64,000 bases of DNA, from assembly GCF_024700885.2 (NCBI RefSeq), contig NZ_CP117016.1, one strand, 5' to 3'. Position numbers: made by a program. The stretch comes from Escherichia coli. GTDB lineage: Bacteria; Pseudomonadota; Gammaproteobacteria; Enterobacterales; Enterobacteriaceae. The first letter of the stretch is position 1. Each line of letters starts with the position of its first letter. Positions 5,601 to 8,600 of this stretch are shown in pieces.

Positions 5601-8600
5601 CAATCGCTGAATGTTTCCGTTGCCTCAGCCCTCATTCTTTACGAAGCCCAGCGCCAGCGGCAAAATGCGGGCATGTACCTGCGTGAAAACAGCATGTTGC
5701 CGGAAGCAGAGCAACAACGCCTGCTGTTTGAAGGCGGCTATCCGGTGCTGGCGAAAGTCGCAAAACGCAAAGGCCTGCCTTACCCCCACGTCAATCAGCA
5801 GGGCGAAATTGAAGCCGATGCCGACTGGTGGGCCACTATGCAAGCTGCAGGGTAAGTACCATGAAAGGTCGCCTGTTAGATGCTGTCCCGCTCAGTTCCC
5901 TAACGGGCGTTGGCGCAGCGCTTAGTAACAAGCTGGCGAAAATCAACCTGCATACCGTGCAGGATCTACTCTTACACCTTCCCCTGCGCTACGAAGATCG
6001 CACCCATCTCTACCCCATCGGAGAACTACTACCGGGCGTTTATGCCACGGTGGAAGGCGAAGTGCTGAACTGCAATATCTCCTTCGGCGGTCGGCGGATG
6101 ATGACCTGCCAGATCAGCGACGGTTCCGGCATTCTCACCATGCGCTTTTTCAACTTCAACGCGGCAATGAAAAATAGCCTGGCGACGGGCCGCCGCGTGC
6201 TGGCCTATGGAGAAGCAAAGCGCGGTAAATATGGCGCGGAGATGATCCACCCGGAATACCGCGTGCAGGGCGATCTCAGTACGCCAGAGTTGCAGGAAAC
6301 GCTTACGCCGGTTTACCCAACAACCGAAGGCGTAAAGCAGGCCACGCTGCGTAAATTAACCGACCAGGCGCTGGATCTGCTCGACACCTGCGCCATTGAA
6401 GAACTCCTGCCGCCGGAACTGTCACAAGGAATGATGACGCTACCGGAAGCGTTGCGCACTTTGCACCGCCCGCCGCCGACGCTACAGCTTAGCGATCTCG
6501 AAACCGGGCAGCATCCAGCACAACGCCGTCTGATTCTGGAAGAACTGCTTGCGCACAACCTCAGCATGTTGGCGTTACGCGCTGGTGCACAACGTTTCCA
6601 TGCCCAGCCGCTTAGCGCCAATGACGCGCTGAAAAATAAACTCCTCGCAGCCTTACCGTTCAAGCCAACGGGCGCACAGGCACGCGTGGTGGCGGAGATC
6701 GAGCGCGATATGGCGCTGGATGCGCCGATGATGCGCCTGGTACAGGGCGATGTAGGTTCCGGTAAAACGCTGGTCGCTGCCCTCGCCGCGCTGCGTGCGA
6801 TTGCCCACGGCAAACAGGTGGCATTGATGGCACCAACCGAATTACTCGCCGAACAGCACGCCAATAACTTCCGTAACTGGTTTGCACCGCTCGGTATCGA
6901 AGTGGGCTGGCTCGCCGGTAAGCAGAAAGGTAAAGCGCGGCTGGCACAGCAGGAAGCCATCGCCAGCGGTCAGGTGCAGATGATTGTCGGAACACACGCC
7001 ATCTTCCAGGAACAGGTGCAGTTTAACGGCCTGGCGCTGGTGATTATCGACGAACAGCATCGCTTTGGCGTGCATCAGCGTCTGGCATTGTGGGAGAAAG
7101 GCCAGCAGCAAGGCTTCCATCCGCATCAGTTGATCATGACCGCCACGCCGATCCCCCGCACGCTGGCGATGACTGCGTATGCTGATCTCGACACCTCGGT
7201 CATTGATGAACTGCCGCCAGGCCGCACGCCAGTGACTACGGTCGCTATTCCTGATACTCGCCGTACCGACATCATTGACCGCGTGCGCCACGCCTGCATG
7301 ACTGAAGGTCGGCAGGCGTACTGGGTGTGCACACTCATTGAAGAGTCAGAGTTACTGGAAGCGCAGGCGGCGGAAGCTACCTGGGAAGAGTTGAAACTGG
7401 CGCTACCAGAGTTGAATGTTGGTCTGGTACACGGACGGATGAAACCAGCCGAGAAGCAGGCCGTCATGGCATCATTTAAACAAGGCGAGTTACACCTGCT
7501 GGTTGCCACTACCGTTATTGAAGTCGGCGTTGATGTGCCTAACGCCAGCCTGATGATTATCGAAAACCCGGAGCGTCTGGGTCTGGCGCAGTTGCACCAG
7601 CTTCGCGGGCGTGTAGGTCGTGGTGCGGTGGCTTCTCACTGCGTGTTGCTCTACAAAACACCGCTCTCTAAAACGGCGCAAATTCGGCTGCAAGTGCTGC
7701 GCGACAGCAACGACGGTTTTGTGATTGCACAGAAAGACTTAGAGATTCGCGGACCGGGTGAACTGTTAGGTACGCGTCAGACGGGTAATGCTGAGTTTAA
7801 AGTGGCGGATTTACTGCGCGATCAGGCGATGATCCCGGAAGTTCAGCGCCTGGCGCGACATATTCACGAACGTTACCCACAACAAGCAAAAGCCCTGATA
7901 GAACGCTGGATGCCGGAGACGGAACGTTACTCGAATGCGTAAAAGGCGGCGGTGAGAAGACCGCCGCTTCAGGTTACCCTACCTTCCTGCCGGATGTGCT
8001 TCGTCCTACAAAAACATATAAACTCAATAAATTGTGAATCAATGCGCAGCCTTGATAAGCGAAGCGTATCAGGCATTTGTCTTCGTTGCGGCGGCACTTC
8101 TACCGCCGCTTCATCGGTTAACCGGCAAAAATCGGCAACATTAAATACAGCTTAATCACCAGCGCGTTAACGATATCAATAAAGAACGCACCGACCATCG
8201 GCACTACCAGGAACGCCATGTGCGACGGGCCAAAACGTTCAGTGATCGCCTGCATGTTGGCGATTGCCGTTGGCGTTGCACCGAGGCCAAAACCACAATG
8301 ACCCGCAGCCAGCACCGCCGCATCGTAGTTTTTGCCCATCATGCGCCAGGTAACGAAGATGGCATACAACGCCATGAAGATGGTCTGTACCACCAGAATC
8401 GCCAGCATCGGCAGCGCCAGCGAAGCCAGCTCCCATAGTTTCAGCCCCATCAGCGCCATCGCCAGGAACAACGACAGGCTTACGTTACCCAGCACGGATA
8501 CCGCACGCTCAAAGACGCGGTAAAAGCCCATCATTGACAGACCGTTGCTCAGAATCACGCCAACAAACAGGACACAGACGAAGGTCGGCAGTTCAAAAGC

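What the first reader, a model, noticed from the sequence alone, without database searches (positions are those of the whole stretch)
7945..8117. Structured 170-bp intergenic region between recG and gltS
Contains a GC hairpin immediately after recG and further palindromic segments (CTTGATAAGCGAAGCGTATCAGGCA) resembling degenerate REP units flanking an AT-rich core, possibly a RIB/RIP-type element with an IHF site.
Basis: seen in the sequence. Interest (0 to 1): 0.2.

Follow-up and report, generated by a model that had tools for sequence, protein, structure and literature searches.

The report
Decayed REP/BIME repeat between recG and gltS
The spacer between the converging genes recG and gltS holds a worn-out copy of a well-known E. 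coli intergenic repeat (a BIME-1/RIP-like pair of REP palindromes around an IHF-type linker) set between two GC hairpins, which is an ordinary feature of this genome.

Summary
The 175-nt recG-gltS spacer (7943-8117) has two strong GC hairpins (7944-7969, -19.4 kcal/mol; 8088-8109, -18.7 kcal/mol). Between them lies a decayed BIME in three parts:
- a Y-type REP that has lost 13 nt of its palindrome (7988-8009);
- a 36-nt AT-rich L-type linker (8010-8045, about 24% GC) with a 12/13 match to the IHF consensus (8022-8034);
- an inverted Z2-type REP with GTAG mutated to GCAG (8046-8074).

A profile built only from three paralogous K-12 L-type BIMEs matches 7988-8076 almost end to end (31.2 bits, E 5e-8; 0 of 3000 shuffles reach it). 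The orthologous spacers of E. albertii and three other Escherichia lineages carry the same element with an intact Y REP (three also keep the Z2 REP). Salmonella and Citrobacter have a single hairpin.

Across 5,426 complete E. coli genomes the site has three alleles: the BIME (~34%), a 33-nt single-hairpin allele equal to the window minus 142 nt between 12-nt direct repeats (~30%), and a 288-aa orphan ORF (~35%). Presence/absence polymorphism of BIME-1 is already documented. This is a known kind of element and of low interest.

The parts
7940..7942 (+). recG stop codon (TAA)
   Evidence: ORF 5828-7942. Annotated recG in identical and near-identical E. coli records and in K-12.
7944..7969 (.). 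Hairpin h1: 10-bp GC stem with loop GAGAAG, starting 2 nt after the recG stop. On the minus strand it is followed by CUUUUAC.
   Evidence: Fold -19.4 kcal/mol, z -4.3, 0 of 200 shuffles as good. Inverted repeat I3. Present in all filled and 'empty' alleles. The K-12 copy carries uncompensated stem changes.
7960..7971 (+). Left copy of the 12-nt direct repeat ACCGCCGCTTCA (3' arm of h1 plus TTCA)
   Evidence: the repeat finder D1. The 33-nt allele equals the window with one repeat copy and the 130 nt between the copies removed, 142 nt in all.
7988..8009 (+). Remnant of a Y-type REP (TGCCGGATGTGCTTCGTCCTAC). The head GCCGGATG and the tail CCTAC are kept; 13 nt of the inner palindrome are deleted.
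   Evidence: Aligned to the intact Y REP GCCGGATGCGGCGTGAACGCCTTATCC(G/A)(G/T)CCTAC of EC42405, E. albertii, E1V33 and E69, and to K-12 paralogues. Residual fold only -5.8 kcal/mol (z -1.5), against -15.1 for the E. albertii copy.
8010..8045 (+). 36-nt AT-rich L-type linker between the CTAC and G(T>C)AG tetranucleotides (tail-to-tail arrangement)
   Evidence: About 24% GC (8010-8046). Paralogous L linkers are 34-35 nt. Similar to those linkers at z 5.4, 0 of 5000 shuffles.
8022..8034 (+). IHF-consensus-like site ACTCAATAAATTG (12 of 13 to WATCAANNNNTTR), preceded by an A/T-rich tract
   Evidence: Read from the sequence. It aligns with ATTCAATATATTG of K-12 REP1, AATCAATGGATTG of cueO/gcd and TATCAATGAGTTA of mutT/yacG. 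No exact consensus match lies in the spacer. Binding is not tested.
8046..8074 (+). Z2-length REP (GCAGCCTTGATAAGCGAAGCGTATCAGGC), inverted relative to the Y REP. The conserved GTAG is mutated to GCAG and the stem foot is weakened.
   Evidence: E. albertii and E1V33 have GTAGGCCTGATAAGCGAAGCGCATC(A/T)GGC at this position, and E69 has the near-identical GTAGGCCAGATAAGCGAAGCGTATCAGGC. Same length class as the cueO/gcd Z2 REP. Fold -9.9 kcal/mol, against -14.5 in E. albertii. Weak sub-threshold Rfam hit to REP325-derived naRNA4, 22.8 bits against a gathering score of 59.5.
8088..8109 (.). Hairpin h2 (GCGGCGGCACTTCTACCGCCGC), 8 nt from the gltS stop. Same stem as h1 with a different loop.
   Evidence: Fold -18.7 kcal/mol, z -5.0. 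Stem invariant in all seven filled alleles. Salmonella and Citrobacter have a single hairpin with the same GCGGCGG/CCGCCGC stem here.
8102..8113 (+). Right copy of the 12-nt direct repeat ACCGCCGCTTCA
   Evidence: the repeat finder D1.
8118..8120 (-). gltS stop codon (TTA on the plus strand)
   Evidence: ORF 8118-9323 on the minus strand. Annotated gltS in matching records.

Best explanation
The spacer is a fossil BIME of the BIME-1/RIB/RIP type. It has a Y REP and an inverted Z2-length REP, tail to tail, around a 36-nt L-type linker that carries an IHF-like site. The element lies between two GC-rich hairpins that close the converging recG and gltS transcription units.

History (inferred from comparison):
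- The Salmonella/Citrobacter state is one hairpin shared by the two genes.
- The BIME and a second hairpin arose in an ancestor of Escherichia.
- In E. coli proper the copy has decayed. GTAG became GCAG, and a 13-nt deletion removed the tip of the Y palindrome; K-12 shares that deletion and has lost more.
- In about 30% of complete E. coli genomes the whole unit was lost by a 142-nt deletion between the directly repeated 3' arms of the two hairpins.

How it works (inferred from what is established for REPs and BIMEs, not shown here):
- The element lies in the 3' untranslated region of both converging mRNAs.
- The two GC hairpins and the surviving Z2 stem-loop act as RNA 3'-end structures, that is, barriers to exonucleases and pause or attenuation sites.
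- Neither hairpin has a proper U-tract. Termination here therefore depends partly on Rho, as measured in K-12.
- The linker may still bind and bend with IHF, probably weakly.
- With its GTAG lost and one palindrome gone, the copy should no longer be a substrate for the REP-associated transposase.
For: Identity
- The profile from three paralogous K-12 L-type BIMEs hits 7988-8076 on the + strand, model positions 6-113 of 116, at 31.2 bits and E 4.7e-8. None of 3000 shuffles exceeds 10.9 bits.
- REP1 used alone as a query already finds the element (E 0.012).
- The linker alone is similar to the L linkers (z 5.4).

Orthology and decay
- E. albertii scores 79.5 bits, E69 73.0, E1V33 66.0 and EC42405 60.3 at the same position. 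Their REPs are intact and fold well (-15.1 and -14.5 kcal/mol in E. albertii).

Origin
- Of 80 recG loci from Enterobacteriaceae, only the four Escherichia lineages carry the element.
- Salmonella has a 35-nt spacer and Citrobacter 39-48 nt, each with a single GCGGCGG...CCGCCGC hairpin.

Deletion allele
- The 33-nt spacers of strains 4973 and AHB1 (A37 differs by one base) are exactly the window minus 142 nt at the 12-nt repeat.
- Counts are about 1868 filled, about 1600 empty and about 1915 ORF alleles.

Function
- K-12 Rho-termination regions are reported at 3827414 (+), which is spacer position 123 of 168, in the 3' arm of the Z2 REP, and at 3826980 (-), inside recG antisense (Adams et al. 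2021, supplementary file 2).
- No U-rich terminator was found in the spacer.
- Harris et al. 2026 describe REPs as 3'UTR terminator-stabilisers and report that about 60% lie between convergent genes.
- The BIME-1 linker binds IHF, and REPs aid Rho-dependent termination (Nunvar 2010; Ton-Hoang 2012).
- GTAG and the stem mismatch are required for TnpA-REP binding and cleavage.
Against: - The right REP is of Z2 length, so this is not a strict Y-L-Z1 BIME-1.
- The IHF site has one mismatch, and I found no ChIP or footprint data for this spacer.
- The two REP remnants do not fold significantly better than shuffles (z -1.5 and -1.9), so any RNA role rests mainly on h1 and h2.
- The K-12 allele is so decayed that the paralogue profile does not detect it.
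- The Rho data come from the K-12 allele, which is 91% identical, and have coarse resolution. No Term-seq 3' end is listed for recG or gltS in that study.
- I could not tell which hairpin is the ancestral one, and the way the second hairpin arose is unexplained.
- The tool's copy of NC_000913.3 lists no repeat features anywhere, so I could not check whether K-12 annotators list a REP here.
Confidence: 0.85

Rival explanations
1. It is a still-functional RIB/RIP element. IHF binds the linker and bends the DNA between the two REPs, so the site works at the DNA level (gyrase/IHF site, nucleoid or supercoil boundary at the end of two transcription units) rather than as RNA structure.
For: The linker is homologous to L linkers. 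It keeps TCAA-N4-TTG with an upstream A/T tract. The K-12 and EC42405 alleles have ATTCAATAAATT(A/G), the same core as K-12 REP1. The literature states that the BIME-1 linker interacts with IHF. The linker is better conserved among Escherichia alleles than the Y REP.
Against: There is no exact IHF consensus in the spacer. About 65% of complete E. coli genomes lack the element altogether, so it is dispensable. Both REPs are decaying. I found no binding data.
Confidence: 0.3
2. The BIME versus 33-nt polymorphism reflects insertion (transposition) of a mobile BIME into an ancestral empty site that persists in some E. coli, not a secondary deletion.
For: The outgroups Salmonella and Citrobacter have the single-hairpin state. 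BIME-1 elements are known to be present or absent among isolates. The 12-nt direct repeat could be read as a target duplication. Flanking haplotypes are deeply diverged, so an old polymorphism is conceivable.
Against: All four other Escherichia lineages sampled carry the BIME at identical junctions. An empty allele would therefore have to survive several speciations. The repeat is part of a duplicated 22-nt hairpin rather than a simple target duplication. In the other species the repeat is only ACCGCCG plus TTCA. On the gltS flank the three sampled empty alleles cluster together (98.4-99.1% identical), which fits a single origin of the empty allele within E. coli. The copy lacks GTAG and one palindrome, which the REP transposase needs.
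Confidence: 0.12
3. The spacer encodes a small regulatory RNA or a 3'UTR-derived sRNA, or the overlapping convergent 3' ends form double-stranded RNA that couples recG and gltS expression.
For: The whole spacer folds into one long hairpin on either strand (-69.8 and -72.9 kcal/mol, z -4.5 and -4.9). K-12 transcripts from both sides read into or through the spacer.
Against: No Rfam family reaches its threshold; the best hits are naRNA4 at 22.8 bits against 59.5 and PinT at 18.5 against 60. No promoter-like site was found. No 3' end is listed for recG or gltS in the Term-seq table searched. The strong fold is explained by the inverted REPs and the twin hairpins.
Confidence: 0.05
4. There are just two terminator hairpins and an AT-rich spacer, and the resemblance to REP is chance.
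For: The REP remnants fold weakly. The simple consensus scan for a complete REP does not hit the spacer. The K-12 allele escapes the profile.
Against: Profile E 4.7e-8 with 0 of 3000 shuffles. Orthologues have intact REPs in register. The linker is homologous to L linkers.
Confidence: 0.02

Closest known systems
BIME-1 / RIB / RIP elements of E. coli (Y REP, L linker with IHF site, Z1 REP). Sources: Gilson 1991, Boccard & Prentki 1993 and Oppenheim 1993, as summarised in Ton-Hoang 2012 and Nunvar 2010.
   Same: Two REPs in inverse, tail-to-tail orientation. A long linker (36 nt against 34-35) homologous to L, with the IHF-type core in the same place. A single copy, extragenic, at the 3' end of transcription units. 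Present or absent among strains.
   Different: The second REP is of Z2 length (29 nt), not Z1 (36 nt). In this window the Y palindrome is truncated, GTAG is GCAG, and the IHF core has C where RIBs have T or A. IHF binding is untested.
K-12 cueO/gcd BIME (L010 38698-38802) and REP1 yaaX/yaaA (L008 5560-5675)
   Same: cueO/gcd has the same Y-L-Z2 make-up and, like this locus, a terminator-type hairpin a few nucleotides beyond the Z REP. REP1 is the best single-sequence match.
   Different: Those copies have intact REPs (105-125 bits to the profile, against 31 here). They are not bracketed by two copies of the same hairpin.
BIME-2 / REP325 (naRNA4) type arrays
   Same: The same Y and Z2 palindromic units. 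There is a weak Rfam naRNA4 hit over 8048-8110. The proposed role is as a 3'UTR terminator-stabiliser with partial Rho dependence.
   Different: BIME-2 elements have short S linkers and are tandemly iterated. This element is a single unit with a long L-type linker.
Bidirectional hairpin terminators between convergent genes
   Same: A GC hairpin shared by or next to both stop codons. This is the state in Salmonella, Citrobacter and the 33-nt E. coli allele.
   Different: Here the hairpin is duplicated and split by a 118-nt insert (BIME plus spacers, 7970-8087). Neither copy has a canonical U-tract. Rho-dependent read-through was measured in K-12.
REPIN/RAYT (TnpA-REP) mobile doublets
   Same: An inverted REP doublet with a linker, which is the proposed unit of mobilisation.
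   Different: The features required for TnpA-REP binding and cleavage (GTAG, and a complete palindrome with its mismatch) are lost here. No rayT gene lies in the part of the window I examined (about 5-11 kb), and I did not search the rest.

Membership tests
REP (palindromic unit) family of E. coli | 30-40 nt imperfect palindrome matching the Y/Z consensus | tested here: inconclusive
   The right unit (8046-8074) keeps a weakened palindrome (-9.9 kcal/mol, z -1.9). The left unit (7988-8009) has lost 13 nt and no longer forms the REP stem (-5.8 kcal/mol, z -1.5). Both align in register to intact REPs of orthologues and paralogues. A strict full-REP pattern with up to 3 mismatches does not hit the spacer.
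REP (palindromic unit) family of E. coli | Conserved GTAG (CTAC on the other strand) at the foot of the palindrome | tested here: inconclusive
   The left unit keeps CTAC (8006-8009). The right unit has GCAG instead of GTAG (8046-8049). GTAG is intact in E. albertii, E1V33, E69 and SCPM.
BIME-1 / RIB / RIP | One Y and one Z1 REP in inverse orientation | tested here: not met
   The Y remnant is present and the orientation is inverse. The partner is 29 nt long (Z2 length, as in cueO/gcd), not the 36-nt Z1 of REP1 and mutT/yacG. By the strict scheme quoted this is an 'atypical' Y-L-Z2 combination.
BIME-1 / RIB / RIP | Long, conserved L linker between the REP tails | tested here: met
   The linker is 36 nt, against 34-35 nt in three K-12 copies. 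Its similarity to them is z 5.4 with 0 of 5000 shuffles. The full-length profile match is 31.2 bits, E 4.7e-8.
BIME-1 / RIB / RIP | IHF consensus site in the linker | tested here: inconclusive
   ACTCAATAAATTG matches 12 of 13 positions of WATCAANNNNTTR. The mismatch is at the same position where K-12 REP1 also deviates (ATTCAA). No exact match lies in the spacer.
BIME-1 / RIB / RIP | IHF actually binds the element | not testable with these tools
   No supplementary ChIP tables were held for this locus. A gel shift or ChIP experiment is needed.
BIME-1 / RIB / RIP | Single copy, extragenic, at the 3' end of transcription units, present or absent among strains | tested here: met
   One unit lies between the stop codons of convergent recG and gltS. 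It is present in about 34% of 5,426 complete genomes and absent from the rest. The polymorphism is known for the family.
Intrinsic (Rho-independent) terminator | GC-rich stem-loop followed directly by a U-tract | tested here: not met
   The stems are strong, but the scan finds no terminator-like site in the spacer. The best tail is CUUUUAC after h1 on the minus strand. K-12 data show Rho-dependent termination on both strands here.
Rfam RNA families (naRNA4, PinT and others) | Score at or above the family gathering threshold | tested here: not met
   naRNA4 scores 22.8 against 59.5, PinT 18.5 against 60 and Collinsella-1 17.7 against 35. Nothing in the spacer passes at gathering thresholds.

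The most novel reading that the evidence does not exclude
The nested palindrome (hairpin, Y REP, linker, inverted Z2 REP, hairpin) flanked by direct repeats could be more than a fossil. It may be one state of an old, maintained three-allele switch at the recG-gltS junction: BIME, a bare shared hairpin, or a 288-aa orphan gene co-oriented with gltS. The alleles would then set different 3'-end processing, read-through and antisense overlap for recG and gltS. The sharp local peak of synonymous divergence (identity to K-12 falls to 91-92% around the junction, from 98-100% a few kb away) would reflect long-term maintenance or repeated import of these alleles.
Probability: 0.08. Interest if true: 0.4.

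Novelty: already known. Interest (0 to 1): 0.12.

Why it matters
It matters little beyond annotation. REP/BIME elements, their IHF-binding linker, their place at the 3' ends of convergent genes and their presence/absence polymorphism have been described for decades.

This locus has three minor uses:
- It is a clean natural series: intact BIME in E. albertii, E69 and EC42405; partly decayed in this window; more decayed in K-12; precisely deleted in about 30% of E. coli. The series shows how such elements erode and are lost.
- It offers ready-made isogenic-style alleles for testing what a BIME does to the 3' ends of two converging mRNAs.
- Decayed copies such as the K-12 one escape simple profile searches, so annotation can miss them.

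Tried and rejected
- K-12 annotation. I looked for a REP/RIP feature at the K-12 spacer. The tool's copy of NC_000913.3 shows no repeat_region features at all, not even the well-known REP1 near 5565-5669. The absence therefore says nothing.
- Rfam. A permissive search of the spacer and a gathering-threshold search of the whole window found no family. The weak naRNA4 hit only reflects REP likeness.
- Promoter and terminator scan. It found no promoter-like site and no U-tract terminator in the spacer.
- Exact IHF consensus search. The window holds 5 sites against 2.9 expected, and none is in the spacer, so the consensus alone carries no weight.
- Strict full-REP pattern. It hits only 58945-58980, not the spacer.
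- nhmmer on the K-12 allele. No hit even with filters off, so the K-12 copy is recognisable only through the orthologue alignment.
- Experimental data. I searched supplements for IHF ChIP, Term-seq and REP lists. Only Adams et al. 2021 gave usable entries. Boccard & Prentki 1993 and Bachellier 1997 are not held.
- Ancestral hairpin. I compared the h1 and h2 loops with the Citrobacter and Salmonella hairpins. The result is inconclusive: 13-19 of 22 identities in all comparisons.
- The 288-aa ORF of the third allele. It has no hit in Pfam, PADLOC or NCBIfam.
- Rejected reading. ERIC/IRU was considered from memory of its consensus only; I saw no resemblance and did not test it with a model.
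Full report
**Where we are.**
- The window is E. coli chromosome. It is 100% identical over 261 nt to strain 1190 and 91% identical to K-12.
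- recG (+) ends at 7942, and gltS (-) has its stop codon at 8118-8120.
- The finding covers the 175-nt spacer 7943-8117 between these converging genes.

**Observation.**
- A GC hairpin (h1, 7944-7969) starts 2 nt after the recG stop. It folds at -19.4 kcal/mol, against -8.9 +/- 2.4 for shuffles.
- The quoted palindrome lies at 8051-8075. It folds only modestly (-9.9 kcal/mol, z -1.9).
- The core 8010-8046 is 24% GC in a window that averages 50%.
  - a second hairpin with the same stem (h2, 8088-8109, -18.7 kcal/mol, z -5.0);
  - a truncated REP on the left (7988-8009);
  - a 12-nt direct repeat, ACCGCCGCTTCA, at 7960-7971 and 8102-8113;
  - the nested inverted repeat formed by the whole spacer. 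As a single strand it can fold into one long hairpin (-69.8 and -72.9 kcal/mol, z -4.5 and -4.9).

**What it is.** I fetched the first 250 kb of K-12 and searched it with K-12 REP1, the Y-L-Z1 element between yaaX and yaaA.
- The search found two more BIMEs with a long linker, cueO/gcd and mutT/yacG. It also found the window spacer, already at E 0.012.
- A profile HMM built from those three paralogues alone aligns to 7988-8076 on the + strand. It covers model positions 6-113 of 116 at 31.2 bits, E 4.7e-8.
- None of 3000 dinucleotide-preserving shuffles of the spacer scores above 10.9 bits.
- The residue-level alignment reads as follows:
  - TGCCGGATG is the head of a Y REP;
  - a 13-nt gap follows, where the inner palindrome should be;
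  - then comes the tail CCTAC;
  - then a 36-nt linker, AAAAACATATAAACTCAATAAATTGTGAATCAATGC;
  - then GCAGCCTTGATAAGCGAAGCGTATCAGGC, an inverted REP of Z2 length.
- The linker alone is significantly similar to the three L linkers (z 5.4; 0 of 5000 shuffles).
- Its ACTCAATAAATTG aligns with the IHF-type cores of the paralogues. AATCAATGGATTG and TATCAATGAGTTA are exact matches to WATCAANNNNTTR. ATTCAATATATTG of REP1 deviates at the same position as the window.

**Orthologues settle it.** I searched the RecG C-terminus against one genome per species and obtained 80 recG loci.
- The four Escherichia lineages are E. albertii, Escherichia sp. E1V33, strain E69 and strain SCPM-O-B-8794.
- All four have a 171-190-nt spacer with the same architecture and the same junctions.
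- All four carry an intact Y REP, GCCGGATGCGGCGTGAACGCCTTATCC(A/G)GCCTAC or a close variant. Three carry an intact GTAG-Z2 REP; SCPM has lost 17 nt of its Z2.
- They score 50-80 bits against the paralogue profile.
- The E. albertii REPs fold at -15.1 and -14.5 kcal/mol.
- Within E. coli, strain EC42405 still has the intact Y REP.
- The window and K-12 share the 13-nt deletion, and K-12 has lost a further 10 nt including CTAC.
- All three E. coli alleles share GTAG>GCAG.
- Salmonella (35 nt) and Citrobacter (39-48 nt) have only a single GCGGCGG-loop-CCGCCGC hairpin between the two stop codons.
- None of the 76 non-Escherichia loci has a BIME hit.
- The element, together with a second copy of the hairpin, therefore arose in an ancestor of Escherichia and has been eroding since.

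**Polymorphism.** Among 5,426 complete E. coli genomes the junction has three states.
- BIME allele: 1868 genomes cover at least 80% of the 261-nt query.
- 33-nt allele: AAGGCGGCGGTGAGAAGACCGCCGCTTCATCGG, a single hairpin.
  - It is exactly the window sequence with 142 nt removed at the 12-nt direct repeat.
  - 1777 genomes cover the junction query. Of 21 sampled full-coverage rows, 19 are single-piece and 2 are window-type BIME alleles spanning 207 nt. That gives about 1600 genomes.
- ORF allele: 1912-1918 genomes.
  - A 288-aa ORF follows gltS after 2 nt on the same strand. It overlaps the recG 3' end by 16 nt and replaces both hairpins.
- Deletion or insertion.
  - All other Escherichia lineages sampled have the BIME at identical junctions. 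The three sampled 33-nt alleles cluster on the gltS flank (98.4-99.1% identical).
  - I therefore read the 33-nt allele as a secondary deletion by slippage between the directly repeated 3' arms of the two hairpins. The surrounding palindrome favours this kind of event (inference from the known behaviour of palindromes flanked by direct repeats). My confidence is about 0.8.
  - An ancestral empty site retained as a polymorphism is the alternative.
- Which hairpin is older could not be decided from loop comparisons. How the hairpin came to be duplicated is unexplained.
- Presence/absence of BIME-1 among E. coli isolates is already documented (Chiapello 2005, citing Bachellier 1997).

**How it probably works.** This part is inferred, not shown.
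- Neither hairpin has a canonical U-tract. The best tail is CUUUUAC after h1 on the minus strand, that is, for transcripts coming from gltS.
- In K-12, Adams et al. 2021 list two Rho-termination regions:
  - 3827414 on the + strand, which is spacer position 123 of 168, in the 3' arm of the Z2 REP (Rho score 3.05);
  - 3826980 on the - strand, about 310 nt inside recG antisense (Rho score 4.36).
- Transcripts from both genes therefore enter the spacer, and those from gltS can cross it. Rho contributes to ending them.
- This fits the current view of REPs as 3'UTR elements that both attenuate transcription, partly through Rho, and block 3' exonucleases. About 60% of REPs lie between convergent genes (Harris et al. 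2026; Nunvar 2010).
- The h2 stem is invariant in all seven BIME alleles, while h1 carries uncompensated changes in K-12. That suggests h2 is the more constrained structure.
- IHF binding at 8022-8034 is plausible but untested.
- The copy should no longer be mobilisable. TnpA-REP needs GTAG and the complete mismatched palindrome (Ton-Hoang 2012).

**Comparison and verdict.**
- The closest known kind is the BIME-1/RIB/RIP class.
- The element works like one and descends from one. By the strict definition (Y plus Z1) it fails on the Z type, so it is best called a BIME-1-like (Y-L-Z2) element, here in decayed form.
- No Rfam family, promoter or plausible small gene is involved.
- This is a known kind of element in the best-studied bacterium, so interest is low.

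Noticed in passing
Not in the window; L007 1528-2394 (-) and L006 1-798 (-), at the position of window 7927-8117: In about 35% of complete E. coli genomes (1912-1918 of 5426, including O157:H7 and ECOR29) the recG-gltS spacer is replaced by a 288-aa ORF. It starts 2 nt after the gltS stop on the same strand and overlaps the recG 3' end by 16 nt. It has no Pfam, PADLOC or NCBIfam match. Homologues sit directly after recG in Superficieibacter electus (65% identity) and Enterobacter sp. kpr-6 (49%). A 2026 paper lists trmH-yicH as a gene-content 'hotspot C' with a variable gene between recG and gltS.
   Followed up: partly
window 7200-8100 (3' third of recG plus the spacer): There is a sharp local peak of nucleotide divergence. 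Identity to K-12 falls to 91-92% here, from 98-100% at 2700-3300 and 9000-9900. The last 570 nt of recG are only 91-97% identical between E. coli strains, as far apart as different Escherichia species, while the RecG C-terminal 250 aa stay 98-100% identical. This suggests old haplotypes or repeated imports linked to the variable junction.
   Followed up: partly
window 43673-43745: Another BIME remnant: a Y REP (TACCGGATGCGGCATGAACGCCTTATCCACCCTAC), a short linker and a truncated inverted Z REP (GTAGGCTGATAAGACGAAGCGG). The profile scores it at 28.8 bits.
   Followed up: no
window 58945-58980: A single REP (GTCGGATGCGATGCTGATGCATCTTATCCGCCCTAC). It is the only hit in the window to a strict full-REP pattern.
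   Followed up: no
window 58351-58480 (-) and 16879-16969 (+): These are the only Rfam matches above gathering thresholds in the window: istR (150 bits) and tRNA-Sec (84 bits).
   Followed up: no
K-12 NC_000913.3 3827414 (+) and 3826980 (-); these correspond roughly to window ~8072 and ~7630: Published Rho-termination regions lie in the Z2 REP arm of the spacer and about 310 nt inside recG antisense. gltS transcription therefore reads through both hairpins into recG antisense in K-12 (Adams et al. 2021, supplementary file 2).
   Followed up: partly
tool copy of NC_000913.3 (L008, 1-50000): The annotated K-12 record held by the tool shows no repeat_region features at all. For example, nothing is listed at the REP1 element at 5560-5675, which the profile finds at 124.6 bits. 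Absence of a REP annotation in these tables is therefore not evidence.
   Followed up: yes
L013 3251-3427 (record titled E. coli SCPM-O-B-8794): In this lineage the Z2 REP, not the Y REP, has been cut down by a 17-nt deletion. Decay of the same ancestral BIME has therefore taken independent routes in different lineages.
   Followed up: no
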